64,000 nt of DNA from a virus. A model generated the notes under the pieces. The model searched no databases. It was not told the origin of the DNA and saw nothing but the letters and a program-made list of their open reading frames with translations. The position numbers and the translations under genes were made by a program. The stretch is from IMG/VR virus record IMGVR_UViG_3300032677_001293; one strand, 5' to 3'. Positions 876-33,775 of this stretch are shown here, piece by piece (position 1 is the first letter of the stretch; each line of letters opens with the position of its first letter).

Positions 876-2027
876 TTAAATTTTAAATAATTTTAAATTT
901 TGATGTATACGTTCTAATGGTTCGTCCCAGTTACCAATGCTAGGTTGTCTAAAAATACGACAGGAAGGATACCAAGGACTGTCTTCACGCTTTAATAACC
1001 AACGCCAATCTTGTCCAAATTGATTTAGTGGTAGCCAAAATGGTCGGCCCAATGCTCCTGCCAAATGTCCTACGGCAGTATCTACAGCAATTACTACATC
1101 AAGATTCATAATTAATCCAGCAGTATCGTTCCAATTTTGTATTGACCCCGGATATGCTTTTACACCTTGGTCAATTAATTGCTGTTCTTCTTCGGAAGAA
1201 CAATCAGTTTGTAAGTTAATCCATTCATATTCAGGATTACGCTTAATTAATTCAAACATTTTTTCAAAAGGTACAGCTTTATGTTGATTGATCCAACTAT
1301 CTCTGCGACCAGACCAAGCAAATCCTACACGCAATTTTGATTTTAATCCTAATCTATCTGCCCATACTTTAATAGCATCTTTACTAGGAGTTAGATACTG
1401 TAGATTATGTGGTAAATTTTCATAAGTGATATCTAAGTATCCCGGAATACTCATGATTGGTGTCCAGTAATCAAATTCAGGAAGTAAATCTTCTGGACCT
1501 AATATTCTAACCGGCATCAAAAATGAATTTTGCAATAATGGTTTTAAATTATTGTCAACACAAATGTACACATCTGCGCCAGCTATAACTAATCGTTCAG
1601 CGAACCGAGAAAATTGAATATTATCTCCATGCCCTTGTTCGCCTGTTATCAGTATAGTTTTACCAGCTAAATCTTGACCCTCCCAACGAGGTTGGCTTAA
1701 TTGGGGAAGTTTGCCGTCTAAGTGCTCAAACTGCCAACGCTTTTCATATTGCTTCCAACCACGCTTTAAATCGCCAGCCAACAAATAAGCCACAGCAAGA
1801 TTAAATTGAGCTACAGAATCATTTTCATTAATAGCTATGGCATTTTGTAAAAACCCATAAGCCCGTTCTGGGAACCCCATTTCTCTAACTACATTTCCGT
1901 AATTATTATATGCGGATCCCATATTAGGATTTTGTACAAATGCTTGGGCATAACAAGCAAGGGCTTTTTCAGGCTCAGAAATTGAGCGATAATGGTTGCC
2001 GTGGGCTAAAAGTTCGTCTGGAGTCAT
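876..2027 (-). CDS. TPR-repeat + GT-B (GT9/heptosyltransferase-like) glycosyltransferase
   Basis: N-terminal TPRs (AYNNYGNV..., AQFNLAVAYLLAGD), then EQGHGDNIQF and LDVVIAVDTAVGHLAGALG...DWRW...SPWYPS motifs of TPR-GT9 proteins. The ATG at 2027 lies 6 nt after a minus-strand TAAATA, so it is preferred over the TTG at 2033. Confidence 0.85.
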   Translation of the reverse strand: MTPDELLAHGNHYRSISEPEKALACYAQAFVQNPNMGSAYNNYGNVVREMGFPERAYGFLQNAIAINENDSVAQFNLAVAYLLAGDLKRGWKQYEKRWQFEHLDGKLPQLSQPRWEGQDLAGKTILITGEQGHGDNIQFSRFAERLVIAGADVYICVDNNLKPLLQNSFLMPVRILGPEDLLPEFDYWTPIMSIPGYLDITYENLPHNLQYLTPSKDAIKVWADRLGLKSKLRVGFAWSGRRDSWINQHKAVPFEKMFELIKRNPEYEWINLQTDCSSEEEQQLIDQGVKAYPGSIQNWNDTAGLIMNLDVVIAVDTAVGHLAGALGRPFWLPLNQFGQDWRWLLKREDSPWYPSCRIFRQPSIGNWDEPLERIHQNLKLFKI

Positions 2028-2033
2028 GAGCAA

Positions 2034-2085
2034 TATTTACTATAAGTTAAACACCTACTTTAAAAAACAGGCTATTCTATAAATA
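2034..2085. promoter_or_regulatory. Divergent T4-type late promoters
   Basis: TAAATA on the minus strand at 2034-2039 and a perfect TATAAATA on the plus strand at 2078-2085. Confidence 0.75.
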
Positions 2086-2093
2086 CTTGACAT

Positions 2094-2152
2094 AGAGCAA
2101 TTCCGCTCTTTATGCTGAGATTAAAACCCACAGCGTAGCGGCTAGAACCCGC
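2094..2152 (+). promoter_or_regulatory. Structured 5' leader with three tandem hairpins
   Basis: AGAGC/GCTCT, TATGCTG/CAGCGTA and GCGG/CCGC stems lie between the late promoter and the SD (AAGGAG) of ORF 2179. Confidence 0.45.
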
Positions 2153-2178
2153 ATCGGACTTCTTTAAGGAGAAAACAC

Positions 2179-2922
2179 ATGGGTCGTCCACTTAAAATTC
2201 AAAAATTATCACCTGGTTCAGGTATTATTACATCAATAGTAGCAAATCCTGTTCCTGTTGATCAAGGTTTCCCACAGTTTCAAAACTTAGATCCAAGCAC
2301 ACAAGTTATTCCATCTGGTATGACAGGTGCTGAATATTTGGGTGTAACTGGCGGCGGGTATGATGGTGGTGTTGCTACAGCAACATTCCCTGTAGTAGCT
2401 GTAAATGCTTACTTCCCAATCGCAGCAGCCGGCGAAGCAGCTTACATTATTACCCAAAAAGGTCAATACAAGTATCTAGTAGCGGCACAAGCTACAGTGG
2501 CAGTAACAGCTATTATTCCTGGTAATTCTTATATTATCAACACATTAGGCACTACAAACTGGACAGCTATTGGTGCTGGTCCTACTCCGGCAGTTGGTGA
2601 TGTATTCACTGCTACTCAAGTAGGCGCAGGTACAGGTTTAGCTAGCGAAGTAGTTCCGGCTTACTTGTCTAATGTAGCAACTGGCTCTTTAGTAGCTGGT
2701 CAAATGAATATGTCATTTACACCAGACGCTGGTACAACTACTATTCTTGCTAGTCGTTTAACTAACAAATACATTTGGGATGACGCAACTCCTCCAAATC
2801 GTTATGCGGTTAACTTCTTTACAAGTGACGTAACAACTGCTAAGTCGGGTGCCGATGCTGCAACATGGACCAACGGTACTGGCTTATTAGATTTGGCTGA
2901 AGTAAGTAGCTATACTTCATAA
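2179..2922 (+). CDS. Virion structural protein
   Basis: Late promoter, strong SD, beta-rich composition and a downstream terminator. Confidence 0.6.
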   Translation: MGRPLKIQKLSPGSGIITSIVANPVPVDQGFPQFQNLDPSTQVIPSGMTGAEYLGVTGGGYDGGVATATFPVVAVNAYFPIAAAGEAAYIITQKGQYKYLVAAQATVAVTAIIPGNSYIINTLGTTNWTAIGAGPTPAVGDVFTATQVGAGTGLASEVVPAYLSNVATGSLVAGQMNMSFTPDAGTTTILASRLTNKYIWDDATPPNRYAVNFFTSDVTTAKSGADAATWTNGTGLLDLAEVSSYTS

Positions 2923-3044: not shown

Positions 3045-3653
3045 ATGGCTTCGTATAAAAATATAAATTCTGATTATACACTAACCTGTAATAATGGTAA
3101 CGGATATTTTACGGTAAACGCCATAACAGCATTTGAGCAAGATGTTACCTTTAACGGCAATGTTACATACGTAGTCCCAGCAACAACTGAAGCAGCATTC
3201 TTTACAGCGGCAGCAAATAATGTTGGTACTATTTTTGACATGGGTTTGCTAGGACAAACAGGTCCTAATACTTTTGCTGGTTTGCGTTTTGACACATTTG
3301 TTAACGCTTGGCAAACAAGTGCTAGTGTAACATCTACAGGAGCTCCAATACAAGCCTATGCTAATATTGGATCAACACCAGCGGGCGACGATCAAGAAGT
3401 ACAATTTAATAACAATGGAGCCTTTGGCGCCGTTGCTAATCTTAAATATGACATTGCTAACAGCCAACTAACACTTAACGGATCTCAAGCATTTGGAAAT
3501 ATTGGAACAATACCTGGCAATGTAGCAAACGCAGTGGTACTTTACAGTAATGTTTCTGAAGGCGGCGGTACAGGATTATATTTTACATCTTCGTCATATC
3601 AAGACGAATTAGTTAGTAAAAGAAACGCAATCATTTACGGAATTATATTTTAA
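3045..3653 (+). CDS. Virion structural/fibre-associated protein
   Basis: TAAATA and SD upstream; carries a 'QEVQFNNNGAFG' module resembling the fibre repeat. Confidence 0.6.
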   Translation: MASYKNINSDYTLTCNNGNGYFTVNAITAFEQDVTFNGNVTYVVPATTEAAFFTAAANNVGTIFDMGLLGQTGPNTFAGLRFDTFVNAWQTSASVTSTGAPIQAYANIGSTPAGDDQEVQFNNNGAFGAVANLKYDIANSQLTLNGSQAFGNIGTIPGNVANAVVLYSNVSEGGGTGLYFTSSSYQDELVSKRNAIIYGIIF

Positions 3654-3662
3654 GGATTAATT

Positions 3663-3974
3663 ATGACAATAGCATTAGCCACACTTACAGATACAGCGAA
3701 TGCGATTTACACGAGTGTAGGTAATACAGCCATTACTTCGCTAACAATGTGTAACTGGGGACCAAGTTCAGTTACTACTAATTTGTATGTAGTTCCAAAC
3801 GGGTATACGCCTGATACTACAAACATTGCGTTAGCAAATGTATTAATTACTTCCACAGAAACTGCTCAACTGTATATGTTTGCAGAAAAATTATTATTAG
3901 GTCCAGGTGATACTATTTGTGCTAATACCTCAGCTAATACAGTAACCGCTATAACTTCATTTACTACACTTTAA
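3663..3974 (+). CDS. Small beta-sandwich virion protein
   Basis: 'YTSVGNTAITSL...EKLLLGPGDTI' is similar in layout to ORF 6186. Confidence 0.55.
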   Translation: MTIALATLTDTANAIYTSVGNTAITSLTMCNWGPSSVTTNLYVVPNGYTPDTTNIALANVLITSTETAQLYMFAEKLLLGPGDTICANTSANTVTAITSFTTL

Positions 3975-4381
3975 TGCCTAATTTTTACAAAAATCGTCTT
4001 TTGATATCTGGAAGTACTGCTACAGTAATGCCTGTAGGTGATACAGCCAATCGACCTAACGATCCATTAGTAGGCGCCTTTAGATACAATCTTGATTTAC
4101 CTGGCATAGAATATTGGACTGGTTCAGTGTGGGCAAGTATCAATTCTGGCGCAGTTACATACACTATTGACAATTTAGTCGGCAATGGAACACAAACAGC
4201 CTTTACAATGGGGCAATCAGTTTCCGATGCTTCACAGGTTATTGTATTTGTTGGATCAATTTATCAAGCACCGAATGTACAAGGCGGTGGTATATCAGCA
4301 TACACGGTGTCTGGCACAACTATTACATTTACAAGTGCGCCGCCAATTAATGCTTCAATAAACATCATACATACAGCTTAA
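3974..4381 (+). CDS. Fibre connector/structural protein
   Basis: Made of a 'PVGDTANRP...RYN...EYW' module and a 'GNGTQTAFT...VGSIYQAP' module; both recur in the giant fibres. Coupled to the previous gene by TAATG. Confidence 0.6.
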   Translation: MPNFYKNRLLISGSTATVMPVGDTANRPNDPLVGAFRYNLDLPGIEYWTGSVWASINSGAVTYTIDNLVGNGTQTAFTMGQSVSDASQVIVFVGSIYQAPNVQGGGISAYTVSGTTITFTSAPPINASINIIHTA

Positions 4382-4409
4382 CTAAATATTAAATTACCAG
4401 GAATAATAA

Positions 4410-6161
4410 ATGTCAATTAATAAAATACCAGGACAAATGCTACAAGCTAATCTTGAAAGAGATGGCAATAGTCTAGCCTTTATTAATAACGCAAATAGTA
4501 CTCCTACACTTTTTTTAGATGTTGCTAATACACAAGTTGGTATCAACACAGCAACACCTCAATCAACATTAGATGTTAATGGTACACTAAGCACTAATGC
4601 TATTGCTCCACATACACCTAGTGGCAATATTGCTATTAGTACTAATGTTAGTGTTACTGGAAATGTAACAGCACAAAATTTCTTTGGCAATGTTAGTATC
4701 AATTCAAGTGACAACATAATTTATGTTGCTACCAATGGCAATGATAGTAACACTGGATCATTTACAGAACCGTTTTTAACTATTGAAGCGGCGCTAAATG
4801 CTGCTTGGGAAGCAACAGGTAATGTAGGTGGGGTCGCAGTTCATGTTGCTCCTGGAACTTATACTGAAAATTGTCCGTTAACTATTACACCTAATGTATC
4901 CTTAATGGGCGATAATATTCGTAGTGTGTATATTCAGCCTGCTGATCCAACACAAGATTTATTTTACATGACAAACGGTTGTTATGTTTGGGGTATTACT
5001 GTACAAGGGTATACAAGTACAGCATTTAGTTATAATCCTAATGGGCTTACTTGTTCTACATATGGCTCGGTTTATAACTCCCCTTATATACAAAATGTTA
5101 GTTCATATACAACAATGCCGTTTTTATATATTACAACCGCTACATCTACTACTGGACAATTTAGCGCACCGTTTGCTCAAACAGGCGCTTGGCCATCTGT
5201 GGGCGACGAAGTTTTAGTTACTGGAATATTATCAGGTACTGCTACTATTACTGGTTACATTTCTAATACTGTTTATCATGTAATAGCATCAACACCAGGC
5301 GAAACTGTTACCTTATCAGCAACTCCAGGCGGCCCAGCTATTACAACAACTGCTGGAACAACCGACGGACTAACATTTACATATAATGTATTTGGTGGAT
5401 TATGTGTTAGTATTGATGGCAGTTTAGTTGATGCTTACAGTACTAAGGCAATGATTTTAGGATTTATTACAATCCTTAATCAAAATGGTACTGGCTTATC
5501 ACTTTCGAATGATGGATATAGTCAAGCGGTTAACATTTATACACTTTATTGTGGTATCGGAGTCGAAGTTAACTCTGGAGCATTTATTACACTTAATGCT
5601 TGCGACTGCGGTATAGGTACTTACGGATTAATTGCCAACGGCGTTGGTAGTTTACAAACTACAGGAACTACTGTAGGCAATAGTACCTCTGGTATTTTTA
5701 TAGTTAATAATTTATCAAATGGTCAACCATTTGTTAATACAGTTATGTCTATACCAGGCGATGACAATTATTATACTATTGATACTATTGCTCCTATCGA
5801 TGCGTTAACATGGAGTGTATCAATACAACAAGTATACACAAATACATTACCAGCTGGAACTACATTATCATTTTATACTCGTAGTGCTATTATTGCTAGT
5901 GCTCATACATTTGAATATGTTGGAGCTGGCACTACCTATGCCGCATTACCGCAGTACGGTGGCATTCCAAAAGAAGAAAATGAAGTAATTGAAATTGGTG
6001 GCGGAGTTATAACATTTACTAGTACAGATCAAAAAGGTAACTTTAAAGTTGGTAAAGGTTTTACTATTAATCAAGCCACAGGAACAATTACTGGTAACGA
6101 CTTTTACGAAAGTTTATTTGCTGAAATGACTCCGTTCATTCTAGCATTAGGTTCAGATTAA
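4410..6161 (+). CDS. Beta-helix (pectate-lyase-like/DUF1565) tail-spike-type protein
   Basis: 'IYVATNGNDSNTGS...PFLTIEAAL...VAPGTYTE' is the usual entry motif of right-handed beta-helices. Confidence 0.65.
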   Translation: MSINKIPGQMLQANLERDGNSLAFINNANSTPTLFLDVANTQVGINTATPQSTLDVNGTLSTNAIAPHTPSGNIAISTNVSVTGNVTAQNFFGNVSINSSDNIIYVATNGNDSNTGSFTEPFLTIEAALNAAWEATGNVGGVAVHVAPGTYTENCPLTITPNVSLMGDNIRSVYIQPADPTQDLFYMTNGCYVWGITVQGYTSTAFSYNPNGLTCSTYGSVYNSPYIQNVSSYTTMPFLYITTATSTTGQFSAPFAQTGAWPSVGDEVLVTGILSGTATITGYISNTVYHVIASTPGETVTLSATPGGPAITTTAGTTDGLTFTYNVFGGLCVSIDGSLVDAYSTKAMILGFITILNQNGTGLSLSNDGYSQAVNIYTLYCGIGVEVNSGAFITLNACDCGIGTYGLIANGVGSLQTTGTTVGNSTSGIFIVNNLSNGQPFVNTVMSIPGDDNYYTIDTIAPIDALTWSVSIQQVYTNTLPAGTTLSFYTRSAIIASAHTFEYVGAGTTYAALPQYGGIPKEENEVIEIGGGVITFTSTDQKGNFKVGKGFTINQATGTITGNDFYESLFAEMTPFILALGSD

Positions 6162-6185
6162 TAAAGAAATAACAAGGAAAAGATC

Positions 6186-6524
6186 ATGCCAGGCGCATTA
6201 AATAATTTTAGAACAACATTAGCAAATGTAACTACAACTACAGCCAATGTATATACACCACCTACTGGGTATGCTACTGTTGTATTGATGGCACAAGTTA
6301 GTAATAATGGCAACGCTACTATTGAAGTTTCTGCTGATGTATTAAGATCTGGCAATGCGTTTTCTCTTATTAACGCGGCACAAGTTCCGGTAAATGATGC
6401 TATTAGTGTTTTAACCGGACGATTAATTTTAAATGTGGGCGACGTATTACAATTTAAATCTAGTGATAACACTAGTGGACAGTTAGTTTTAAGTTATTTG
6501 GAAACACTGGTAACCGGTTCATAA
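6186..6524 (+). CDS. Small virion structural protein
   Basis: 'VYTPPTGYATVVLMAQVSN...RLILNVGDVL'; SD upstream. Confidence 0.55.
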   Translation: MPGALNNFRTTLANVTTTTANVYTPPTGYATVVLMAQVSNNGNATIEVSADVLRSGNAFSLINAAQVPVNDAISVLTGRLILNVGDVLQFKSSDNTSGQLVLSYLETLVTGS

Positions 6525-6525
6525 T

Positions 6526-8526
6526 ATGCCAATTAACCACACTAAACTTCTTAGCGGCCGTGCTCCAACAGTTCCTTATGATGAGCTTAGTGAATCACGA
6601 TATCAATTTTTAGCGTTAGGCGAAGCTGAACCTAACTTAGGTACAAGTGGTCAAGGAAATATTTTAACAATTGGTCCAGACAATACTCGTGTTTGGACTA
6701 ACACAATTAATGCTAATGTATCTACACAAACAATTTATGTAGACAATCTTACATCATATACACCTGGCGGCAATATTAATGTTATACCTTCGGGCAATGG
6801 CATATTAACTATTGCTAACACTTATGGCGGAGCAACAGGAATACAGTTAGGATCAAATACTACAGGAGCATTTATTAGTAATGCCGTAGTACTACAATCA
6901 AATACTAGCGTAACTAATGGTATTGCCGAATTAAACTTAATTTTAGGTAAATTGGTTCCACCGCAACCACCAGCATTTCCTGCTAATACAACATTAGCAA
7001 TTACTAATGCTACTACTGCGGCAAGAATGTGTTCAGGATTTACGCAACCTAACAATACAACTACTGGCAATAAGGCAGTACCGGCTGGCACTTTAGTAAG
7101 TGCTGTTCGTACACCTACATATACTACTAATACAATCGCTAATGCTGGTCCAGGTGACGCAGGTACAGTAACAGTTTATGTAGATAGTACAGCAGCTGGC
7201 ACCGTTACATTTAACAATAATGCTACCCCAACAGGAAATGGTACACACGGCAATTTAGTTATTACTAATAACGAAGATTATCACTATGCTAATAGTTCTA
7301 TTTTAGCAACTTTTTGGTATGTATTTTCAGCGCAAGCTACAGGAAATGTACCATCTGGTTGGAATGAAGTTTATATTTCAGACACACAAACAAGCAATAC
7401 TAACACAGCAGTTTGGTATTATGATGCTAGTACCGCATCTGCTCCTGTGTTTTCTTCTAATACATTTACTGCTTGTGCTACACCTAGCATAACTTATTCT
7501 AGTACAATTCCTCATTATAATTCAGGAACTAATTTTGTTATTGGATTTAATGTTAATAATTTGTCAGGTAATATGTATCCTAATAATGGAAATTTACTTA
7601 CAAATACTACAACTGCTGGCGGAGCATTTTTAGCGCCAGCAACAGTAAGCTATGCGGCAGCAAACGTAACAGTTCCATTAGCACAAAATTTATATGTTGG
7701 TTCAGGTAATGCTACAGTATCTACTACTGCTGGTATTGTAAATGGATTTGGTAGTAGTAATGCTGGCCCAAGTGTAACCGTAACAAATAGTTACAACGCG
7801 ACTACACATACATTTAACCCAACAGGCATTGTACTTTATAAAACAGGCACCGGCACAGCTATTGATGAATCTAATATTGTTATTGGATCAACTATAGGGT
7901 CTGGTTCTGGTAACGGATACCGTATTGTTAATCCTGGTACAGGAAATACTCCTGTATATACAGGAAACGAAGCACAGTTTAATAGTCAAACTGGCCCACT
8001 GTACACTTATGATGCTACAGTAGTTGGTTCCAGTAGTCAAGGTTTATTAACATTTAATCAAACTAATTATTCTGGCGGAGCATACTTGCCAGTAGGTCCA
8101 AACTTAACTGGTCAAGGATCCGCACAATACTTTACATTTAAATTTGTGCGCTCGGCGGCAAGTAAATTTGATATTCAGATTGCTGGAACAGTTGGCGGAG
8201 TGTGGGTAGCACTTCCAGGAAGTGTATTCGATACTAATATTTCTGGCATTGGCCCAACTTCAGATTTAAATGGTTGGTTGAATATGAGCTTACCGTATGG
8301 TGGCGCAGGTCGTCCTGGCGCTATTACAGCTAATGGCGGTAACGGTTCTGATGGTTGTAGTGTAGGCGGAGTACTTCCAATCAATACAGCTATTAACGGC
8401 AGATACACTTGTACCTTTGGAACTGTTTCTAGTTCTTCAACTAGCACAAACGAAATTTATGTACGCATTAGACTTACATCAGGACAAAGCGTTACAGCTT
8501 TATCATTACAAACGGCGAGCAATTAA
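6526..8526 (+). CDS. Virion structural protein (baseplate/fibre-associated)
   Basis: 666-aa T/N/G/S-rich beta protein in the late structural operon. Confidence 0.55.
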   Translation: MPINHTKLLSGRAPTVPYDELSESRYQFLALGEAEPNLGTSGQGNILTIGPDNTRVWTNTINANVSTQTIYVDNLTSYTPGGNINVIPSGNGILTIANTYGGATGIQLGSNTTGAFISNAVVLQSNTSVTNGIAELNLILGKLVPPQPPAFPANTTLAITNATTAARMCSGFTQPNNTTTGNKAVPAGTLVSAVRTPTYTTNTIANAGPGDAGTVTVYVDSTAAGTVTFNNNATPTGNGTHGNLVITNNEDYHYANSSILATFWYVFSAQATGNVPSGWNEVYISDTQTSNTNTAVWYYDASTASAPVFSSNTFTACATPSITYSSTIPHYNSGTNFVIGFNVNNLSGNMYPNNGNLLTNTTTAGGAFLAPATVSYAAANVTVPLAQNLYVGSGNATVSTTAGIVNGFGSSNAGPSVTVTNSYNATTHTFNPTGIVLYKTGTGTAIDESNIVIGSTIGSGSGNGYRIVNPGTGNTPVYTGNEAQFNSQTGPLYTYDATVVGSSSQGLLTFNQTNYSGGAYLPVGPNLTGQGSAQYFTFKFVRSAASKFDIQIAGTVGGVWVALPGSVFDTNISGIGPTSDLNGWLNMSLPYGGAGRPGAITANGGNGSDGCSVGGVLPINTAINGRYTCTFGTVSSSSTSTNEIYVRIRLTSGQSVTALSLQTASN

Positions 8527-14537: not shown

Positions 14538-14608
14538 TTTTGAAATTATAAGCGCATATAACCAAAAATCCCCAGTCACGGTAAATACTTCATAACAAGG
14601 AGTTTACT

Positions 14609-20212: not shown

Positions 20213-20260
20213 AGGGTAACCCAAAATTATAATAAATAAAAGTTAACAAGGATAACAAAC

Positions 20261-26926: not shown

Positions 26927-26928
26927 TA

Positions 26929-29900
26929 ATGGCATTTCCTTTAAGCCCGACAAACGGACAAACGGCTAGCATAAACAATATTGTTTATGTATATTCGTCA
27001 ACTACAAACACATGGACTAGAACTGCTCCGGGCTTTGGTAACATTGGAGCCTCGGGCAACATTTCTGCTATAGGAAGTATTTCTGCGGCAGGTAATGTCT
27101 ACGGAAATTATATTGTCGGTAATGTAACTGGAACAGTAACTAACGCTATTACAGTAACAGGTAATGCTCAACCAAATATTACATCTGTTGGCACATTAAC
27201 AAGTTTAACATCTACTGGGTTAATTAGTACAACAGGTAATGTATCGGGCAATTACATTTTAGGTAATGCTAGTCAACTATCAAATGTTAATGCTAACACA
27301 ATTAACACTACCTTTATCGGTACTGCTAATACTTACTATCTTGATTTTGTTGCCGCAGATGGAGCAAATAATCAAACAGTATATAATTCACCATTTTTAA
27401 CTTATATACCAACTTCTGGATTACTGGGAGTTTCAGCGTTAACTGCTACTGGTAACATTAGTGGAAATTATATTATTGGTAACGGTAGCCAACTTACTGG
27501 ATTACCAGCTGGATACGCTAATAGTAATGTAGTATCTTATGCTCAATCGGGTTGGGCTGGAAACATTATTCCAAGTTCAGCTAATACATACACACTAGGT
27601 AATGCTACCAATTATTGGCAAGAAGTTTTTGTAGGCCCAAGTTCACTGTACATCGGTGGTAATGCTTTAAGTGCTGTTAATGGTGTATTAGCATTTAATG
27701 GATCTAATGTTGTACTAACAACAACTCCAGGGGTTATTTCTACAACTGGCAATATTATTGGCGGAAATTTAATAACAGCTGGGTATGTTAGTGCCACTGG
27801 CAATATTACAGGTAATTATATTATTGGTAACGGATCACAATTAACTGGACTACCAGCTAGTTATGGCAACGCCAATGTAGCCGCTTACTTACCAACATAT
27901 ACAGGAAATTTAACTGCTGACAATATTAGTGTTACTGGAAATGTAACAGCTAATTATGTTATTGGTAACGGCGCAATATTATCAAGTATTACTGGTGCTA
28001 ATGTAACTGGTACTGTAGCTAACGCAACTTATGCCTTGAGTGCTGGTTCTGCTGTTGGCACAGCGGCTACTGTTACTACAAACGCACAACCAAACATTAC
28101 TAGTGTTGGTACGCTGACATCATTAAGTGTAAGCGGTAATACTACTAGTGGAAATATTTTAACTGCTGGACAATTAAGTGCTACTGGAAATTTATCAGGC
28201 GGCAATTTATACATACCTGGTAGTGCTAATATTCTTGGCAATTTAAATGTTCAAGGTAATGTTACTTTTATCAATAGTAATGTTATTACAGTTAATGATT
28301 TATACATTGAATTAGCCAACAATCAAACTACTTACGCTAATATTAACGGCGCTGGATTAGCAGTTGGACCGAATGGCAGTGCATTAACATATTGGCAATA
28401 TAATACAGGATCTAACGCTTGGACTACCAATGTTGGCGTTAGCGCAAGCGGAAATGTTACCGGTAATTATTATATTGGTAATGGCGCAACATTATCAAGT
28501 ATTACAGGTGCTAACGTAACTGGTACTGTAGCTAATGCGACTTATGCTATATCTGCGGGTACAGCAACTTCTGCGACAACTGCCGGGACAGTAACTACTA
28601 ATGCTCAACCAAATATTACAAGTGTTGGCACACTAACAAGTTTAAGTATAAGTGGCAATACTACTTCAGGTAATATTTTAACTAATGGATTTGTAAGCGC
28701 CACTGGCACTGCAGTTACTGGAGTCAATGCCGCTCAATTTGGTACACCTAATGTATCATTACACGCTAATGCTGTAGTAACATCTGCTGGTAATTCTAAT
28801 CAAAGCGCACAATTCGCTTTTCAAAATTTCAGTAATGGTTCCTTAGCATCCACTGACTTAGCATTATATAATAACCAAGGCACAGACAGCACATACTTTA
28901 TTGACATGGGTATCTTAGGCAGTAGTTACGACGCTGCTAATCAAGGATTTAATGTTGCTGGAGCAAATGACGGTTACTTATATGTAACTGGTAATAGTCA
29001 AACTGGCCCTGTTAATTCAGGAGCCAATGTTGGTAATTTAATTCTTGGCACTACTAATGGTCAAATTATTGCGTTTGTTGGCAACACATCTAATGCTAAT
29101 ATTGTTACAGTAACAAGTAATACAGGTTTTGCTGTCACTGGAAATATTAGTGCTAATGGATTAATAACTGGCGGAACATTATCCACTACTGGCGTAGTTT
29201 ACGGCGGAAATATTGCGGCCAACGGAAACATTACTACTGGCAATCTTAGTGCTACTGGTAATATTGTAGGTAGCTACTTTATTGGTAATGGCTCGCAATT
29301 AACTGGATTACCAGCAGGAAATTATAGTAATGCCAATGTAGCCGCTTACTTACCAACATATACCGGCAATTTAACTGCTGGCAATATAACAACTACTGGA
29401 TTAGTAAGTGCTAGTGGAAATATTAATACGTCGGGCAATATTAATCAAGCAGGTACTGGAAATATTAACGGCTACAACGGATATTTTAGTAATAACTTTA
29501 CAGTAATTGGAACATTCCAAAGTACAAGTAATATTACATCCAATGGCGCAGGTATTTTCTACGGTAATGTTACAACAGGTGACGGAGCATTATACGCCGG
29601 CGTTCCTGGATTCACCCCATTGGGCTCAGACGTTGTATTACAGTTAGCTGGTAATGTTAATAGCTATAGTCAAATTAATTTTCAAAATATTAATTCAGGA
29701 AGCGGCGCAAGTACTGACTTTATTTTAACTGCTAATAACGGTAACAATTCTGCTTATTACGCCGACTTTGGTATTACTGGTAATAATCACGTTGACCCTG
29801 CGTTCTTTGGTGACAGTTCAACCTTAAATGATATTTACTTGTATGCTGTAGCTACTAATCAAGCAGGTCCAAGTACAACAAGTGGTCCTGGTAATTTAAT

Positions 29901-31833
29901 ACTTGGATCATCAAACGGACAAATTAAGTTATTTGTTGGTAATACTGCCCAAGCAAACGTTATTCAACAAATTAGTTCTATTGGTATTGCTGTTAATGGA
30001 GTAGTTAGTGCTACTGGTAATATCACTGGCAACTATATCTATGGTAACGGTGCTTTCTTAACCGGCATTTCAGGTGGTGGCAATGGCGGCGGAAATGGCA
30101 CAGCTATTCTTAACGGATCAAGTAATGTAAACATTGCGACAGCCAACGGTAATATTACAGTAGGTGTAAGCGGAGTAGGCAATGTTGTTACTTGGGCACC
30201 AACAGGCGAATATGTGTCAGGTGTAATTAGTGCTACTGGTAACATCACTGGTGGAAACATTGTAACAGGTACTGGTACTGGCGGTAACCTTACTGGTGCT
30301 AACGTCATCAGTGCTAACACATTTGTTGCTACAGCTAATATAAGTGCTATTGGTAATATTACAGGCAGTTATATTTTAGGTAACGGCGCATTGTTAACTG
30401 GAGTTAGTACTAGTTCAAGTAATATTAATAACGGTACAAGTAACGTAACAGTAACTGGTTCTGGTGCCAACGTTACTGTAGGTGTTGGAGGTACTGCTAA
30501 CGTTGCGGTATTTGCTTCGACTGGTGAATATGTAACTGGTGTAATTAGTGCCACCGGTAATATTACAGGTGGCAATCTTAATGTTCCATTTGGTGGTGTT
30601 ATTATTGCTAGTAATATTGTTGTTCAAGGCGCCGGTAGTAATCTTACTGTCTCCAATGGTGCAATACTACAGTTAAGTGGAAGTGCTGTGTGTTCGCTTT
30701 CCAGTCCTGCTGTTATCAGTGGCACGGGTAACATAACTGCCGGTAATATTGCTGGTGGTAATGTCCTAACAGGTGGTATTGTCAGCGCCACCGGTAATAT
30801 TACTGTTGGTAATATTGGAACTTCTGGTTTAGCAAGCGTTGTTGGTAACGTACAAGCTGGTAACATTAGAACAGTTGGATTAATTACAGCTACAGGTAAC
30901 ATTACTGGTGGTAACATATTAACTGTTGGATTGATATCGGCTACAAGTACTATAACAAGTGCGGCTAATATTATTGGTGGCAATATTACAACTGTTGGAT
31001 TATTGTCGGCTACAAGTACTATAACAAGTGCGGCTAATATTATTGGTGGTAATATCCTCACCGCTGGCATAATGTCAAGTACTGGAAACATCACCGCTGG
31101 TAATATAATTATTCCGGGCGCCTTTGGCCAAGTAGCTATAATCAATGGAACTTTGAATGTAACTGGTACATCTATTGTTCGCCTAGCCAATGCTTCTGGC
31201 TCAAATACTGTAGTACTTGATTCTCTCCTTGGTACTGTCAGTGCTACAGGCAACGTTACAGGTAACTATTTCATTGGTAATGGTAGTCAATTAACTGGTA
31301 TTATAGCCAGTGCTGGAGCTGCTATTACTAATGGAAACTCCAATGTCACGGTCAATGCCAATGCCAATGTAACTGTTGGTGTAACCGGTACAAGTAATGT
31401 GGTCGTTGTTGCGCCAACTGGCGAATATGTCACTGGCGTTGTCAGTGCCACTGGCAATGTTACAACACCTAATACTATAAGTGGCGGTACAATAACTGCT
31501 ACTGGTAACGTGTTTGACAGTATTGGTCCAGTTAGAAATATTCCAATTAATACTCAGGCGGCAAACTATACCTTAGCAATCACCGACAACGGCAAATTTG
31601 TTAGTACTACATCTAACGTTTTTGTTCCTAATACTATATTTTCTGCTGGTAATGCTATAACATTATTCAATAACTCGGCAGCCAACGTTACTGTGTACGC
31701 AAATACTAGTGTTACTATGTATTTGGCAGGTACAGCTACTACTGGTAACCGTGTGCTAGCACAGCGTGGTATGGCCACTATACTTTGTGTAGCGGCTAAC
31801 ACATTCGTTATTTCTGGCGCAGGACTATTCTAA
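26929..31833 (+). CDS. Giant tail fibre (distal)
   Basis: Same MAFPxSP N-terminus and repeats as ORF 20261, with a different C-terminal domain (NYTLAITDNGK...VISGAGL). Confidence 0.7.
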   Translation: MAFPLSPTNGQTASINNIVYVYSSTTNTWTRTAPGFGNIGASGNISAIGSISAAGNVYGNYIVGNVTGTVTNAITVTGNAQPNITSVGTLTSLTSTGLISTTGNVSGNYILGNASQLSNVNANTINTTFIGTANTYYLDFVAADGANNQTVYNSPFLTYIPTSGLLGVSALTATGNISGNYIIGNGSQLTGLPAGYANSNVVSYAQSGWAGNIIPSSANTYTLGNATNYWQEVFVGPSSLYIGGNALSAVNGVLAFNGSNVVLTTTPGVISTTGNIIGGNLITAGYVSATGNITGNYIIGNGSQLTGLPASYGNANVAAYLPTYTGNLTADNISVTGNVTANYVIGNGAILSSITGANVTGTVANATYALSAGSAVGTAATVTTNAQPNITSVGTLTSLSVSGNTTSGNILTAGQLSATGNLSGGNLYIPGSANILGNLNVQGNVTFINSNVITVNDLYIELANNQTTYANINGAGLAVGPNGSALTYWQYNTGSNAWTTNVGVSASGNVTGNYYIGNGATLSSITGANVTGTVANATYAISAGTATSATTAGTVTTNAQPNITSVGTLTSLSISGNTTSGNILTNGFVSATGTAVTGVNAAQFGTPNVSLHANAVVTSAGNSNQSAQFAFQNFSNGSLASTDLALYNNQGTDSTYFIDMGILGSSYDAANQGFNVAGANDGYLYVTGNSQTGPVNSGANVGNLILGTTNGQIIAFVGNTSNANIVTVTSNTGFAVTGNISANGLITGGTLSTTGVVYGGNIAANGNITTGNLSATGNIVGSYFIGNGSQLTGLPAGNYSNANVAAYLPTYTGNLTAGNITTTGLVSASGNINTSGNINQAGTGNINGYNGYFSNNFTVIGTFQSTSNITSNGAGIFYGNVTTGDGALYAGVPGFTPLGSDVVLQLAGNVNSYSQINFQNINSGSGASTDFILTANNGNNSAYYADFGITGNNHVDPAFFGDSSTLNDIYLYAVATNQAGPSTTSGPGNLILGSSNGQIKLFVGNTAQANVIQQISSIGIAVNGVVSATGNITGNYIYGNGAFLTGISGGGNGGGNGTAILNGSSNVNIATANGNITVGVSGVGNVVTWAPTGEYVSGVISATGNITGGNIVTGTGTGGNLTGANVISANTFVATANISAIGNITGSYILGNGALLTGVSTSSSNINNGTSNVTVTGSGANVTVGVGGTANVAVFASTGEYVTGVISATGNITGGNLNVPFGGVIIASNIVVQGAGSNLTVSNGAILQLSGSAVCSLSSPAVISGTGNITAGNIAGGNVLTGGIVSATGNITVGNIGTSGLASVVGNVQAGNIRTVGLITATGNITGGNILTVGLISATSTITSAANIIGGNITTVGLLSATSTITSAANIIGGNILTAGIMSSTGNITAGNIIIPGAFGQVAIINGTLNVTGTSIVRLANASGSNTVVLDSLLGTVSATGNVTGNYFIGNGSQLTGIIASAGAAITNGNSNVTVNANANVTVGVTGTSNVVVVAPTGEYVTGVVSATGNVTTPNTISGGTITATGNVFDSIGPVRNIPINTQAANYTLAITDNGKFVSTTSNVFVPNTIFSAGNAITLFNNSAANVTVYANTSVTMYLAGTATTGNRVLAQRGMATILCVAANTFVISGAGLF
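30922..31056 (+). repeat. 69-bp in-frame tandem duplication
   Basis: Copies start at 30922 and 30991 and share the identical core tcggctacaagtactataacaagtgcggctaatattattggtgg. Confidence 0.85.
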
Positions 31834-32477
31834 TGACAATGCAATCGGCCTTTGCCGGCACCCCAAACAGTTTTGCTTTTATTGTTACTGCCGCTGGCTC
31901 AGGAAGTATCCTTTCACCCAGTTATGCTGGCAATGCCATAGTAGAAGCCATAGGTGGGGGTGGTAACGGATTTGCCATTGGTACCAGCAATCTGAGTACC
32001 GGAGGTGGTGGTGGGGCCTATGCCCGTAGTACTATTACCGTTACTGGTGGTACTACCACACTATTTTATCTAGTTGGTAGTGCTACTGCCAACAGTTGGG
32101 TCAATACCAGTAATGCTCAACCAACACTTACTACCACAGGTTGCAGTGCCGCATTTGGACGAAACGGTGTATCAGGTACTGCCGGCGCAGGTGGCACCAC
32201 TGCCAACTGCGTAGGTACTACTACATTTGCCGGCGGAGCAGGAGCAGGCGCAAGTAATGCCAACGGTGGTGGTGGTTCAGCAGGTGACACAGGAGCTGGT
32301 CAAAACGGCGTGGCTGGCGCAGGTGGTACGGCAGGCACTGGTACAAATTTACCAGGCGGCACTGGTGGAAGTAGTACCACAGCAGGCATTGCTCCAGGCG
32401 GCGGTGGCGGCTCAGCACGTAACGGAGCTACCCTAGCCGGTGCGGTCAGCTCAATTCGCATAACTTTTACACAATAA
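31833..32477 (+). CDS. Glycine-rich fibre-tip adhesin (polyglycine, gp38-like architecture)
   Basis: GGGG/GGGGGAY/GAGG/APGGGGG motifs; coupled to the distal fibre gene by TAATG. Confidence 0.6.
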   Translation: MTMQSAFAGTPNSFAFIVTAAGSGSILSPSYAGNAIVEAIGGGGNGFAIGTSNLSTGGGGGAYARSTITVTGGTTTLFYLVGSATANSWVNTSNAQPTLTTTGCSAAFGRNGVSGTAGAGGTTANCVGTTTFAGGAGAGASNANGGGGSAGDTGAGQNGVAGAGGTAGTGTNLPGGTGGSSTTAGIAPGGGGGSARNGATLAGAVSSIRITFTQ

Positions 32478-32505
32478 TAGACATAATCAATTAAGGAGAT
32501 TAAAA

Positions 32506-32679
32506 ATGACTGTAGCTGTAGTAGACTCATCTAATACTGTTGTTAATTTAATCGTAGCTGAGGTAACAGATTTACCGCCAGCTGATTGTCAATTAATAGC
32601 GGTGCCTGATTCCAACGATTATTATCCTAACATAGGTGATACTTGGAACGGATCAAATTTTGTACCACAAAGTAGTTAA
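32506..32679 (+). CDS. 57-aa fibre-associated small protein, possibly a chaperone (absent from the ORF track)
   Basis: SD AAGGAG 7 nt before the ATG; translates MTVAVVDSSNTVVNLIVAE...IGDTWNGSNFVPQSS*. Confidence 0.7.
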   Translation: MTVAVVDSSNTVVNLIVAEVTDLPPADCQLIAVPDSNDYYPNIGDTWNGSNFVPQSS

Positions 32680-32690
32680 ACAATTTAATT

Positions 32691-33353
32691 ATGCAAGCTA
32701 GATACAGACAAGACTACCCAGGTGAATTTGTAATTACAGAATCTAAGTGGACTGGTGGCAAGAAAAAAGAAAAGCGTGAATGGATTGCTAATCCAGTTAT
32801 CAACCAACACTTGTCTGGTCGTGCGGCTGCCATAGGTACTAATGAAAGTAAATTACAATTTGACTATACAGTATTAGAGCATCATCGCGGTGGATTACTA
32901 GGTTCTAAAAAATTACAAACTTATGGTACAGCAGAAATTGCTCAAGAAATGCGTTTAGATTTTGCTGTTGATTTAGACTACAATAATATTGAACCATTAA
33001 TTGAAAACAAATATACAGAAAATAATATTGTATATACTACAGCTCGCAACTGTATTAAGACTCCGGGTGAGTTTTATTTAATTCCACAAAATCCACATTT
33101 TTGTACTGTAGTATTACCAATTTATCTTGCGGCGTTTGACGGCCACAAGGAAATATATATGATTGGCTACGACAAAGAAACTGATGCTGGACATAATGAT
33201 TGGATTGATCAAGTTACTAGTATAATAAATGCTTATGACAGTACAATTTTTGTCATGGTTGGTAACAAATTAAATATGCCAGATGCTTGGCTATCTTGCC
33301 CCAATACAAAAACTTTAGATTTTAGAGACTTTGTAACTTATTGTGACGTATAA
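32691..33353 (+). CDS. Maf/DUF115-like (sialyltransferase-fold) glycosyltransferase-related protein
   Basis: 'RAAAIGTNES' early and 'YLAAFDGHKEIYMIGYD' late resemble the IGNGxS ... AxxxGxkxIyLxGfD signature. Confidence 0.45.
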   Translation: MQARYRQDYPGEFVITESKWTGGKKKEKREWIANPVINQHLSGRAAAIGTNESKLQFDYTVLEHHRGGLLGSKKLQTYGTAEIAQEMRLDFAVDLDYNNIEPLIENKYTENNIVYTTARNCIKTPGEFYLIPQNPHFCTVVLPIYLAAFDGHKEIYMIGYDKETDAGHNDWIDQVTSIINAYDSTIFVMVGNKLNMPDAWLSCPNTKTLDFRDFVTYCDV

Positions 33354-33775
33354 AGTTGTTGCTGTATAATTGAAATCTTTTGTTGTACGGCAGAAAAATT
33401 TATAGTGCTCCATAGTCCCGGGTGTAGTGGTTTAGGCCAAGTCCCAGAATTGATCCAGGCATAACCCGAATGTTCGTCGTTTAGTCGAGGGTTAAATTCA
33501 TTGTCAACTACAGCAAAAAAAGTATTATATTCAAATCCGCCATCTGCTGATGTAAATTTTTCTAATGGCATCAGCTTAACATATTCAGGCATACTGCCCA
33601 ACTCTTCCTCACACTCACGAACCATGGCAGCCATTATACTTTCTCCCTGTTCAATTTTGCCGCCTGGCAAACCCCAAGAGTCTGGGTGTTTAGGATCGTT
33701 TCTCATCAAATATAAGTAGCGATTAGTAGATTGGGAATAAAACCAAATTCCCACAGCGGCGACAATGTTTGACAT
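33338..33775 (-). CDS. Nudix hydrolase
   Basis: Nudix box GGKIEQGESIMAAMVRECEEELG. Confidence 0.92.
   Translation of the reverse strand: MSNIVAAVGIWFYSQSTNRYLYLMRNDPKHPDSWGLPGGKIEQGESIMAAMVRECEEELGSMPEYVKLMPLEKFTSADGGFEYNTFFAVVDNEFNPRLNDEHSGYAWINSGTWPKPLHPGLWSTINFSAVQQKISIIQQQLYTSQ

What the first reader, a model, noticed from the sequence alone, without database searches (positions are those of the whole stretch)
876..33775. Possible virion-fibre glycosylation system: sequon-rich giant fibres between two glycosyltransferase-fold genes and a Nudix hydrolase
Seen: about 29 kb of fibre genes whose repeats are dense in N-x-S/T (GNIT, ANVT, ANAT, PNIT, GNIS, GNLT) and Ser/Thr, with few charged residues. 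A TPR-GT9-like gene with a late promoter is on the left (876-2027); a Maf/DUF115-like gene (32691, co-oriented with the fibre genes) and a Nudix hydrolase are on the right. Established: TPR+GT-B enzymes (FlmG) and Maf proteins glycosylate flagellins, HMW1C glycosylates adhesins at N-x-S/T, and Aah/TibC heptosylate autotransporter repeats. Inference: the phage may glycosylate its own fibres for folding, protease resistance or adhesion. Asn ladders in beta-solenoids could also explain the sequon density with no glycan.
Basis: inference. Interest (0 to 1): 0.75.

Follow-up and report, generated by a model that had tools for sequence, protein, structure and literature searches.

The report
Phage fibre operon flanked by transferases
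An uncultured lake jumbo phage has a 30-kb late fibre operon with a TPR-heptosyltransferase-like gene at one end and a stripped-down Maf-like gene at the other, so it may sugar-coat a virion protein, but the N-x-S/T "sequons" come from the fibre repeat, the Nudix gene is unrelated, and no sugar has been measured.

Summary
The window comes from a lake-water jumbo myovirus distantly related to PA5oct and Atu_ph07.

- **TPR-GT9 gene (876-2027, minus strand).** It has three TPRs plus a GT9-fold GT-B domain (Z 19 to GT9 structures). A TAAATA box sits 5-6 nt before its ATG with no SD. This box is conserved in at least 63 of 80 relatives, which points to a leaderless late mRNA.
- **Its constant partner is not a giant fibre.** It is the divergent first operon gene at 2179-2922. 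That gene's 5' leader is the orphan Rfam motif freshwater-2.
- **Gene 32691-33353.** It has the Maf/MptE/CstII fold (Z 11.9 to Maf 5mu5), but it belongs to a paralog group that lacks the family's GNGxSR and YGCNA motifs. The motif-bearing mini-Maf found beside the 2179-type gene in 41 of 80 related loci is absent here.
- **Sequons.** They exceed composition shuffles (z 3.3-6.0). The reverse pattern is almost as enriched, and the excess disappears once the single repeat family is collapsed.
- **Nudix gene.** It is a backbone gene syntenic with the gp15-like gene, including in phages that have neither transferase.

Best reading (about 0.45): late cytoplasmic O-glycosylation of an operon product by the TPR-GT9 enzyme. 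This scan has already reported the same cassette on other genomes.

The parts
876..2027 (-). TPR + GT9-fold glycosyltransferase (383 aa from ATG 2027; the TTG at 2033 listed by the ORF finder is probably not the start)
   Evidence: Pfam TPR families plus PF01075 at its cut-off. AF2 model pLDDT 89. Residues 119-385 match GT9 3tov Z 19.1, WaaF 18.6, WaaC 17.5 and TibC 17.1; residues 1-104 form three TPRs. GHGD137 and D318-T-x-x-x-H323 are invariant in 36 homologs. Homologs are 383 aa.
2033..2038 (-). TAAATA late-type box, 5-6 nt before the GT9 ATG, with no Shine-Dalgarno: predicted leaderless late transcript
   Evidence: Sequence. The box keeps the same spacing in at least 63 of 80 related loci while the flanking sequence varies.
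2078..2085 (+). TATAAATA late promoter box facing gene 2179
   Evidence: One of only 3 exact copies in 64 kb (12.4 expected). All three lie just upstream of + strand genes. TAAATA is conserved at this position in 36 relatives.
2093..2181 (+). freshwater-2 RNA (Rfam RF02980), the 5' leader of gene 2179 up to its start codon
   Evidence: 66.3 bits against a gathering score of 49.9; the only Rfam hit in the window. Three hairpins; 9 of 15 pairs have compensatory changes in 36 relatives.
2179..2922 (+). First operon gene (247 aa, no known family), constant divergent partner of the GT9 gene. Conserved MGRPLKIQK N-terminus and ...YTS C-terminus; variable middle
   Evidence: Adjacent to GT9 in 73 of 80 loci by tblastn, and a divergent copy was found by eye in L008, one of the loci tblastn had missed. 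No Pfam, PHROG, NCBIfam, phage-database or Atlas match.
3045..8526 (+). Smaller fibre and baseplate-like genes (3045, 3663, 3974, 4410, 6186, 6526)
   Evidence: PHROG tail-fibre and baseplate-wedge matches. Same order in the complete relative G008.
8526..31833 (+). Four giant repeat fibres (8526-14537, 14609-18958, 20261-26926, 26929-31833) plus a 390-aa fibre gene (19040-20212)
   Evidence: Composition and sequon counts. Repeat motifs GN[IVL][TS], ANVT, ANAT, PNIT and GNGS. One repeat family covers 149 of 181 segments. PHROG matches.
31833..32680 (+). Gly-rich 214-aa ORF (31833-32477) and a 57-aa ORF with its own SD (32507-32680)
   Evidence: No family match for the 214-aa ORF.
32691..33353 (+). 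Mini Maf/MptE-fold protein, motif-less paralog; last gene of the operon
   Evidence: AF2 pLDDT 96. Maf 5mu5 Z 11.9, MptE HPPK Z 10.5, Cst-I Z 9.8. CstII Foldseek E 8e-4. 8 of 56 relatives weakly hit PF01973. Lacks GNGxSR and YGCNA. Preceded by a fibre gene in at least 52 of 76 loci and followed by Nudix in 80 of 80.
33338..33775 (-). Nudix hydrolase. A backbone gene, not part of the candidate system
   Evidence: PF00293 60 bits. 40% identical to the Paride Nudix, which sits next to that phage's gp15-like gene.

Best explanation
The region is the late fibre operon (2179-33353) of an uncultured freshwater jumbo myovirus.

On its left, a divergently transcribed gene encodes a TPR + GT9-fold enzyme made late from a leaderless mRNA. 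I infer that this enzyme is a cytoplasmic protein O-glycosyltransferase. Its three TPRs would bind an acceptor protein, as in FlmG and OGT. Its GT-B domain would transfer a host-supplied sugar, with ADP-heptose as the default guess for a GT9 fold, to Ser/Thr of one or more operon products before virion assembly.

The best-supported acceptor candidate is the always-adjacent 2179 protein. The Ser/Thr-rich fibres are possible further acceptors.

The Maf-fold protein at the far end is a diverged paralog of a motif-bearing mini-Maf that many relatives carry next to the 2179-type gene. In this phage it has lost the nucleotide-sugar loop, so it may act as a non-catalytic adaptor or assembly factor, or use another ligand.

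The N-x-S/T sequons and the Nudix gene play no part.

Shown here: the folds, the motifs, the synteny and the promoter conservation. Inferred: any sugar transfer, the donor and the acceptor.
For: - **Enzyme.** GT9 fold with invariant GHGD and D-T-x-x-x-H motifs, plus an N-terminal TPR. More than 4000 homologs at 57-99% identity indicate strong purifying selection.
- **Timing.** The TAAATA box 5-6 nt before the ATG is conserved in at least 63 of 80 relatives. The operon opposite has a conserved late box.
- **Linkage to gene 2179.** The 2179-type gene is next to GT9 in 73 of 80 loci, and a divergent copy was found in L008, one of the loci tblastn had missed.
- **Bracketing.** GT9 and the 32691-type gene bracket a fibre block of variable length (about 9 to over 30 kb) in every long-enough contig. 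These include G001, G002, G004, G005, G007, G008, G010, G011, G012 and G015, two of them 93-100% complete 320-344 kb genomes.
- **Minimal form.** L020 and L049 keep GT9, the 2179-type gene and a mini-Maf even without giant fibres.
- **Distant homologs.** TPR-GT homologs in other phages sit among structural and glycan genes. In ctDrO704 the neighbours include the capsid gene, an FkbM methyltransferase, a GalT-like gene and an acyltransferase. In S-SRM01 they include a tail fibre, a sulfotransferase and a glycosyltransferase.
- **Precedent.** The FlmG TPR domain binds flagellin and its GT-B domain glycosylates it (PMC7591256). Mycobacteriophage virions are glycosylated (Freeman 2023, cited in PMC12619734).
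Against: - No glycan has been observed, and donor and acceptor are both unknown.
- Sequence support for GT9 is borderline: PF01075 scores 22.0 bits against a cut-off of 22 over 29 residues, and a single-sequence search finds no PDB hit.
- The window's only Maf-like gene lacks the nucleotide-sugar motifs.
- Complete relatives carry no sugar-nucleotide synthesis genes: no NeuB and no CMP-sugar synthetase. The enzyme would therefore depend on the host, which is unknown.
- Gene adjacency in a densely packed phage genome is weak evidence for an enzyme-substrate pair.
Confidence: 0.45

Rival explanations
1. There is no virion glycosylation. The TPR-GT9 enzyme modifies a host target, such as the LPS core or a host envelope or regulatory protein, late in infection, for example to block superinfection or adsorption of progeny to debris. 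Its position beside the fibre operon would be coincidental.
For: - GT9 enzymes are classically LPS heptosyltransferases; the best fold matches are WaaF and WaaC.
- The giant fibres vary freely in number and length while GT9 stays 57-99% identical.
- Iyer et al. read phage GT clusters as surface-polysaccharide modifiers (PMC7824862).
Against: - LPS heptosyltransferases have no TPR domain. TPR-GT-B fusions with known function (FlmG, OGT, SPY) modify proteins.
- The strictly conserved divergent pairing with gene 2179 and the late leaderless expression fit a morphogenesis role better.
Confidence: 0.2
2. The 32691 protein is a non-catalytic descendant of a mini-Maf. It would serve as a fibre assembly or attachment factor, or as an acceptor-presenting adaptor, rather than as a transferase.
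For: - It and its whole subgroup lack GNGxSR and YGCNA, yet keep other invariant polar residues and have gained a conserved N-terminal beta-hairpin extension.
- It is always the last gene after the fibres.
- In G008, G007 and G004 it coexists with a motif-bearing paralog.
- Maf-2 needs a separate adaptor, GlfM (bioRxiv 10.1101/2023.12.03.569772).
Against: - The FDGH-K-E-I segment shared with motif-bearing members is retained, and 55-82% identity across relatives fits either an enzyme or a binder.
- No binding or structural test was possible.
Confidence: 0.4
3. The Maf/MptE-fold proteins are small-molecule pyrophosphokinases or other nucleotide enzymes, with no link to glycosylation.
For: - The second-best fold match is archaeal MptE HPPK (Z 10.5), and thiamine pyrophosphokinases follow.
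- The motif-bearing relative in pelagiphage HTVC008M lies between uvsY and uvsW, a DNA-metabolism setting.
Against: - The best match is Maf (Z 11.9), and sialyltransferases of GT42 and GT29 dominate the next ranks.
- In this phage clade the genes always sit inside the late fibre operon.
Confidence: 0.12
4. This is the first reader's version: N-glycosylation of the giant fibres at N-x-S/T sequons, HMW1C-style.
For: - Sequon excess over composition shuffles is z 3.3-6.0.
- Foldseek also lists GT41 enzymes SPY and OGT.
Against: - The reverse sequon is nearly as enriched, and the excess vanishes after collapsing repeats.
- The catalytic domain superposes rigidly on GT9 (rmsd 3.3 A over 250 residues). 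The GT41 hits align at rmsd 15-17 A, driven by the TPR.
- HMW1C was not among the 50 Foldseek and 50 VIA-align rows shown.
Confidence: 0.04

Closest known systems
FlmG flagellin O-glycosyltransferase (Caulobacter; PMC7591256)
   Same: N-terminal TPR plus C-terminal GT-B domain. It is cytoplasmic and is encoded beside the genes for the filament proteins it modifies. The TPR domain supplies acceptor recognition.
   Different: FlmG is 596 aa with a long TPR region and transfers pseudaminic acid. This protein is 383 aa with three TPRs, and its GT domain is GT9-like. Sequence relatedness to FlmG was not tested. The acceptor here would be a virion protein.
LPS heptosyltransferases WaaC/WaaF and the autotransporter heptosyltransferases TibC/Aah (GT9 fold)
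   Same: Best rigid structural matches (Z 17-19 over about 240-250 residues). The GxGD and D-[ST]-x-x-x-H motifs are conserved. TibC and Aah O-heptosylate Ser/Thr of repeat-rich adhesins.
   Different: These enzymes have no TPR domain. There is no clustered-Cys iron site of the TibC type. Sequence similarity is marginal. The donor sugar is unknown.
Maf flagellin glycosyltransferases (MAF_flag10/DUF115, PF01973; Magnetospirillum Maf 5mu5) and CstII/Cst-I sialyltransferases (GT42)
   Same: The 32691 protein shares the core fold (Z 11.9 and 9.8). Motif-bearing relatives in sister phages have a GNGxS-type loop like Maf and CstII.
   Different: It has 220 aa against about 630, with no acceptor-binding flanking domains. 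The window's copy lacks the nucleotide-sugar loop and gets no Pfam hit. The phage has no nonulosonate pathway.
Mycobacteriophage virion glycosylation (Freeman et al. 2023, as cited in PMC12619734)
   Same: Phage-encoded glycosyltransferases next to structural genes modify virion proteins.
   Different: Different enzyme families and hosts, and different targets (C-termini of capsid and tail-tube subunits). That case was shown by experiment; nothing has been measured here.
Earlier reports of this scan on related phages (e1-5803481, e1-5704642, e1-5391071)
   Same: Same cassette: mini-Maf and motif-less paralog at the ends of a repeat-fibre operon, with a TPR-GT9 gene. Sequons were judged a by-product of the repeat.
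   Different: This window lacks the motif-bearing mini-Maf. New here: gene 2179 as the invariant partner of GT9, its freshwater-2 RNA leader, and the Nudix synteny with the gp15-like gene.

Membership tests
GT9 (heptosyltransferase family, PF01075) | GT-B fold of two Rossmann-like domains that superposes on solved GT9 enzymes | tested here: met
   Residues 119-385: 3tov Z 19.1 (250 aa, 3.3 A), WaaF 1psw Z 18.6, WaaC Z 17.5. Foldseek gives 1psw E 5.6e-9.
GT9 (heptosyltransferase family, PF01075) | Sequence match to the family profile above the curated cut-off | tested here: inconclusive
   PF01075 scores 22.0 bits against a cut-off of 22, over 29 residues only. TIGR02193 scores 16 bits against a cut-off of 185. 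Many homologs carry a precomputed PF01075 hit. A single-sequence PDB search finds nothing.
GT9 (heptosyltransferase family, PF01075) | N-terminal GxGD catalytic Asp and C-terminal D-[ST]-G-x-x-H nucleotide-sugar motif (motif definitions recalled from the WaaC literature) | tested here: met
   GHGD137 and D318-T-A-V-G-H323 are invariant in 36 homologs.
GT9 (heptosyltransferase family, PF01075) | Uses ADP-heptose as donor | not testable with these tools
   No biochemical data. The host is unknown.
BAHT (TibC/Aah autotransporter heptosyltransferases) | Cys-coordinated iron site and dodecameric assembly (Lu et al. 2014, recalled; listed in the references of PMC7591256) | tested here: not met
   The four Cys (27, 157, 277, 358) are dispersed with no CxxC, and none is invariant in alignment A2. 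The TibC fold match is Z 17.1, no better than for LPS enzymes. Oligomeric state was not tested.
FlmG-class / TPR-GT-B protein glycosyltransferases | N-terminal TPR acceptor-binding domain fused to a C-terminal GT-B domain | tested here: met
   Three TPRs at residues 1-104 (Z about 18 to peptide-binding TPRs), followed by the GT-B domain.
FlmG-class / TPR-GT-B protein glycosylransferases | Binds and glycosylates a defined protein acceptor | not testable with these tools
   Only a wet-lab assay can decide this.
GT41 (OGT, SPY, HMW1C) | Catalytic domain superposes on GT41 rather than on other GT-B families | tested here: inconclusive
   SPY and OGT lead the Foldseek E-values (6e-10), but they align at rmsd 15-17 A across both domains, whereas GT9 aligns at 3.3 A.
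Maf / MAF_flag10 / MptE-like (PF01973) | Core fold | tested here: met
   5mu5_A Z 11.9 (175 aa, 3.7 A) is the top hit among 48,161 chains; MptE 8sd5 Z 10.5; Cst-I 2p56 Z 9.8.
Maf / MAF_flag10 / MptE-like (PF01973) | Match to the Pfam profile | tested here: not met
   The window protein has no PF01973 hit at E up to 1. Only 8 of 56 relatives hit weakly, best E 9e-4.
Maf / MAF_flag10 / MptE-like (PF01973) | Gly-rich GNGxS nucleotide-sugar loop after the first strand | tested here: not met
   The window has A-I-G-T-N-E-S-K where motif-bearing relatives have V-I-G-N-G-x-S-R. YGCNA is replaced by YGTAE.
Maf / MAF_flag10 / MptE-like (PF01973) | Flanking acceptor-binding domains (N-terminal domain; C-terminal TPR in Maf-1) | tested here: not met
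   220 aa against 632 aa for 5mu5. The only addition is a short N-terminal beta-hairpin.
Nudix hydrolases (PF00293) | Nudix box GX5EX7REUXEEXGU and a profile match | tested here: met
   60.1 bits against a cut-off of 21.1. The box reads G-K-I-E-Q-G-E ... R-E-C-E-E-E-L-G in the translation.
freshwater-2 RNA (RF02980) | Covariance-model score above the gathering threshold | tested here: met
   66.3 bits against 49.9, full model length 1-84. Compensatory changes in 9 of 15 pairs among 36 relatives.

The most novel reading that the evidence does not exclude
A large clade of freshwater jumbo phages carries a dedicated virion-protein O-glycosylation module that differs from the mycobacteriophage one. 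A leaderless late TPR-GT9 enzyme would glycosylate the product of its divergent neighbour, the 2179 family. Translation of that neighbour is controlled by the orphan freshwater-2 RNA. Mini-Maf paralogs, one catalytic and one adaptor-like, would extend or direct the modification to the variable fibres. This would give freshwater-2 its first biological context and extend the FlmG/Maf logic of flagellin glycosylation to phage appendages.
Probability: 0.15. Interest if true: 0.75.

Novelty: new variant of a known kind. Interest (0 to 1): 0.5.

Why it matters
- **If the TPR-GT9 enzyme glycosylates a virion protein,** this abundant lake-phage clade would be a second, mechanistically different case of phage-encoded virion glycosylation. 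More than 4000 homologs and hundreds of IMG/VR contigs belong to it. The mycobacteriophages are the first case. This one would use the TPR-plus-GT design that bacteria use for flagellins and adhesins. Surface glycans could affect adsorption, stability or protection from proteases.
- **Separately, the freshwater-2 RNA motif now has a context.** It lies in the 5' leader of one specific late gene, which makes this orphan Rfam family testable.
- **The negative results also matter.** Sequon density in repeat fibres and a nearby Nudix gene are not signs of a glycosylation system.

Tried and rejected
- **Complex prediction:** TPR-GT9 (A2) with the 2179 protein (A4) gave no verdict (score 0.00). This is not evidence either way.
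- **The look-up of encoding contigs:** Synteny was taken from IMG/VR loci instead.
- **The search for related loci:** the full Maf-like alignment A1 had no conserved stretch to search with. The search was repeated with subgroup alignment A3.
- **Near-identity DNA searches of the phage collection:** no match.
- **tblastn of the 32691 and 2179 proteins against the phage collection:** no match.
- **Protein Atlas for the 2179 protein:** no usable hit.
- **PDB profile searches:** A1 gave spurious ankyrin matches to the LAAFDGHKE segment and only a weak Cst-I hit (E 0.016). A2 was dominated by TPR proteins. The GT domain alone found nothing.
- **NeuB and CMP-sugar synthetase families in the complete relatives G008 and G007:** none found.
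- **3045-3653 as a diverged mini-Maf:** rejected; hhalign probability 0.5%.
- **A second Maf-like gene elsewhere in the window:** none in the six-frame profile search.
- **Paride_0472 as a 32691 homolog:** rejected.
- **Sequencing-run search:** no RNA holder listed, only lake, freshwater and pond DNA runs. No reads were laid.
- **Literature searches:** no description of this cassette, and nothing on freshwater-2, in the held library.

Full report
**What the window is.** The 64-kb window has 36-42% G+C and is densely packed with co-oriented ORFs. It has no near-identical record in the phage collection. Its gp15-like tail-completion protein (34703-36064) is 30-35% identical to those of the jumbo phages PA5oct, Paride, Atu_ph07 and Phosso. 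Related IMG/VR contigs reach 320-344 kb, and one has terminal repeats and is rated 100% complete. The DNA occurs in lake, freshwater and pond metagenomes. It is therefore an uncultured freshwater jumbo myovirus.

**The fibre observation.**
- ORFs on the + strand run from 2179 to 33353. Four of them are giants of 2003, 1449, 2221 and 1634 aa.
- The giants hold 2.0-5.9% charged residues, 12-13.5% Asn and about 25% Ser+Thr. Typical genes in the window have 15-30% charged residues.
- PHROG profiles label several of these ORFs as tail fibre or baseplate proteins. Pfam finds nothing.

**The sequon observation.**
- N-x(not P)-S/T counts exceed composition-preserving shuffles in all four giants: 87 vs 65, 61 vs 43, 110 vs 71 and 76 vs 51 (z 3.4-6.0). 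Most other ORFs scatter around expectation; a few short ones (o35, o54329) also exceed it.
- The excess is not specific to sequons. N-x-T is enriched 1.61-fold, the reverse T-x-N 1.47-fold and N-x-S only 1.2-fold. The strongest signals are GN (2.9x), NI (2.8x) and G-x-I.
- The 334 sequons fall into a few repeated words: GNIT, GNVT, GNIS, ANVT, GNGS, PNIT and ANAT. All are positions of one recurring unit of about 60 residues.
- Of 181 forty-residue segments, 149 form a single similarity cluster. With one representative per cluster the excess is z 0.6, against 1.0 for the reverse pattern.

**The left-hand transferase (876-2027, minus strand).**
- Homologs are 383 aa, so the ATG at 2027 is the start.
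- Pfam finds TPR repeats and a borderline GT9 match.
- An AlphaFold model built with 36 homologs (pLDDT 89) shows three TPRs (residues 1-104) and a two-lobed Rossmann domain.
- The catalytic part superposes on GT9 enzymes: 3tov Z 19.1, WaaF 18.6, WaaC 17.5, TibC 17.1, at rmsd about 3.3 A over about 250 residues. GT41 enzymes (SPY, OGT) rank high in Foldseek mainly through the TPR and align at rmsd 15-17 A.
- The GHGD and D-T-x-x-x-H motifs are invariant among homologs.
- There is no clustered-cysteine site of the TibC type.
- The family is very large, with more than 4000 metagenomic proteins and the best 120 listed 57-99% identical.

**Its promoter.**
- The only exact TATAAATA nearby (2078-2085) is on the + strand and faces gene 2179.
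- On the minus strand a TAAATA box ends 5-6 nt before the ATG, with no Shine-Dalgarno sequence.
- In at least 63 of 80 related loci the same box sits at the same distance while the surrounding sequence varies. This fits a leaderless late transcript. The claim of late expression is supported, but in this form.

**What the GT9 gene travels with.**
- In 80 IMG/VR loci, the divergent neighbour is a homolog of gene 2179 in 73 cases by tblastn. Where I checked a miss (L008), a more divergent copy was present.
- This protein has a nearly invariant N-terminus (MGRPLKIQK), several conserved internal motifs and a conserved ...YTS C-terminus, with a variable middle. It has no match in Pfam, PHROG, NCBIfam, the phage collection or the Atlas.
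- Giant-fibre homologs lie within 10 kb in about 59 loci.
- Two loci (L020, L049) run from the gp15-like gene through Nudix, a small protein and a mini-Maf to the 2179-type gene and then GT9, with no giant fibre. The constant partner of the enzyme is therefore gene 2179, not the giant fibres.

**The right-hand gene (32691-33353).**
- It has no Pfam, PHROG or NCBIfam hit.
- An exhaustive HMMER search found 146 representative relatives.
- The AlphaFold model has pLDDT 96. A Foldseek-independent search of 48,161 chains puts the Maf glycosyltransferase 5mu5 first (Z 11.9). MptE pyrophosphokinase (10.5), Cst-I (9.8), SteA and eukaryotic sialyltransferases follow. Foldseek gives CstII.
- Eight of 56 relatives weakly match PF01973.
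- The alignment splits the family in two. Distant members carry V-I-G-N-G-x-S-R, Y-G-C-N-A-x-Y-R-D and an N-N-x-Y-A-G-T insert. The window's protein and its close relatives have none of these, and instead have a conserved N-terminal extension.
- The motif-bearing type lies directly after the 2179-type gene in 41 of the 80 GT9 loci. In the near-complete genomes G007 and G008 both types are present, one at each end of the fibre block.
- The window has only the motif-less type.
- That type is followed by the convergent Nudix and gp15-like genes in 80 of 80 loci. It is preceded by a co-oriented fibre gene in at least 52 of 76.

**Co-occurrence.** Wherever a contig is long enough, the TPR-GT9 gene and the 32691-type gene lie about 12 to 53 kb apart on either side of a fibre block. 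This holds for G001, G002, G004, G005, G007, G008, G010, G011, G012 and G015, and for two shorter contigs. In G006 (212 kb) only the motif-bearing type was found. This is real linkage, but within one phage clade, so it counts as few independent events.

**The Nudix gene.** It has an intact Nudix box. It is 40% identical to the Nudix gene that directly follows the gp15-like gene in Paride and other Wroclawvirus phages. Those phages showed no homolog of either transferase in tblastn. In the window an HNH endonuclease gene is inserted between the two. The Nudix gene is a backbone gene and not part of the candidate system.

**Donor sugars.** The complete relatives encode no NeuB-type synthase and no CMP-sugar synthetase. 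Any donor must come from the host. Maf enzymes can use CMP-Kdo when no nonulosonate is available (bioRxiv 10.1101/2023.12.03.569772; PMC11339370 abstract). GT9 enzymes typically use ADP-heptose (established knowledge).

**Mechanism proposed.**
- TPR-GT-B fusions of known function modify proteins. In FlmG the TPR domain binds flagellin and the GT-B domain transfers the sugar (PMC7591256).
- By analogy, the late-made TPR-GT9 enzyme would O-glycosylate an operon product in the cytoplasm before assembly. The 2179 protein is the most consistent candidate and the Ser/Thr-rich fibres are possible further ones.
- Distant TPR-GT homologs in other phages also lie among structural and glycan-tailoring genes.
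- The motif-less Maf-fold protein may be an adaptor or assembly factor.
- Every step beyond fold, motif, synteny and promoter conservation is inference.

**Side finding.**
- The 5' leader of gene 2179 (2093-2181) is the only Rfam match in the window. It is freshwater-2 (RF02980), at 66.3 bits against a gathering score of 49.9.
- It begins just after the late box and ends at the start codon.
- In 36 relatives, three hairpins are kept and 9 of 15 pairs show compensatory changes.
- As far as I recall, this motif was described from freshwater metagenomes without a known function. The held library has no paper on it.

**Relation to earlier work.** The only experimentally shown phage virion glycosylation I found cited is in mycobacteriophages. 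I found no paper on this cassette. This scan has already reported the same cassette on other genomes, with similar verdicts. My tests here agree with those reports independently.

**Verdict.** The finding is a new variant of a known kind and is unproven. This window is a weaker example than its relatives because it lacks the motif-bearing mini-Maf.

Noticed in passing
window 2093-2181 (+): The orphan Rfam cis-regulatory motif freshwater-2 (RF02980, 66.3 bits) is the 5' leader of the first fibre-operon gene. It lies between a conserved late promoter box and the start codon. Three hairpins show compensatory changes in 36 related phages. This gives the motif a genomic context: a jumbo-phage late gene next to a TPR-GT9 gene.
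   Followed up: partly
window 2027-2038 (-) and 80 related loci: The TPR-GT9 gene has a TAAATA box 5-6 nt before its ATG and no Shine-Dalgarno. The box is conserved in at least 63 of 80 relatives, which predicts a leaderless late mRNA.
   Followed up: yes
window, whole: Exact TATAAATA occurs only 3 times in 64 kb (12.4 expected), at 2078, 39790 and 49816. All three are on the + strand just upstream of genes. The octamer is depleted except at likely late promoters.
   Followed up: partly
window 35-871 (+): A 278-aa ORF made of about six BNR/Asp-box-like repeats (...VNSAGLFVAVG...YATSSNGSTWT...) in which Asn replaces the usual Asp. This creates N-G-S sequons (12 against 6 expected). Weak Pfam BNR_2 match.
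   Followed up: no
window 32507-32680 (+): An unlisted 57-aa ORF with a strong SD (AAGGAG) lies between the Gly-rich ORF and the Maf-like gene.
   Followed up: no
window 33859-34710 (+): An HNH homing-endonuclease gene is inserted between the Nudix and gp15-like genes. These two are adjacent in Paride. In L020 and L049 other endonuclease-like ORFs occupy the same gap.
   Followed up: partly
L163 (Pelagibacter phage HTVC008M, 77489-78319): A motif-bearing mini-Maf homolog (36% identity) lies between uvsY and uvsW in a pelagiphage, with three matching places in that genome. In this case the family sits in a DNA-metabolism context.
   Followed up: no
L166 (Caudoviricetes sp. ctDrO704, 44 kb): A distant TPR-GT homolog (29% identity) sits between the major capsid gene and genes annotated as FkbM methyltransferase, GalT-like protein and acyltransferase. 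This may be a separate virion-glycosylation island in a small podovirus.
   Followed up: no
window 14400-14537 and 26790-26926: Two giant fibres end in a shared conserved C-terminal domain (...IGK[SA]LED[FY]...GVIEV[VA]VGR) that matches PHROG 22593. It recalls the auto-cleaving chaperone domains of other fibres, but has no Pfam match.
   Followed up: no
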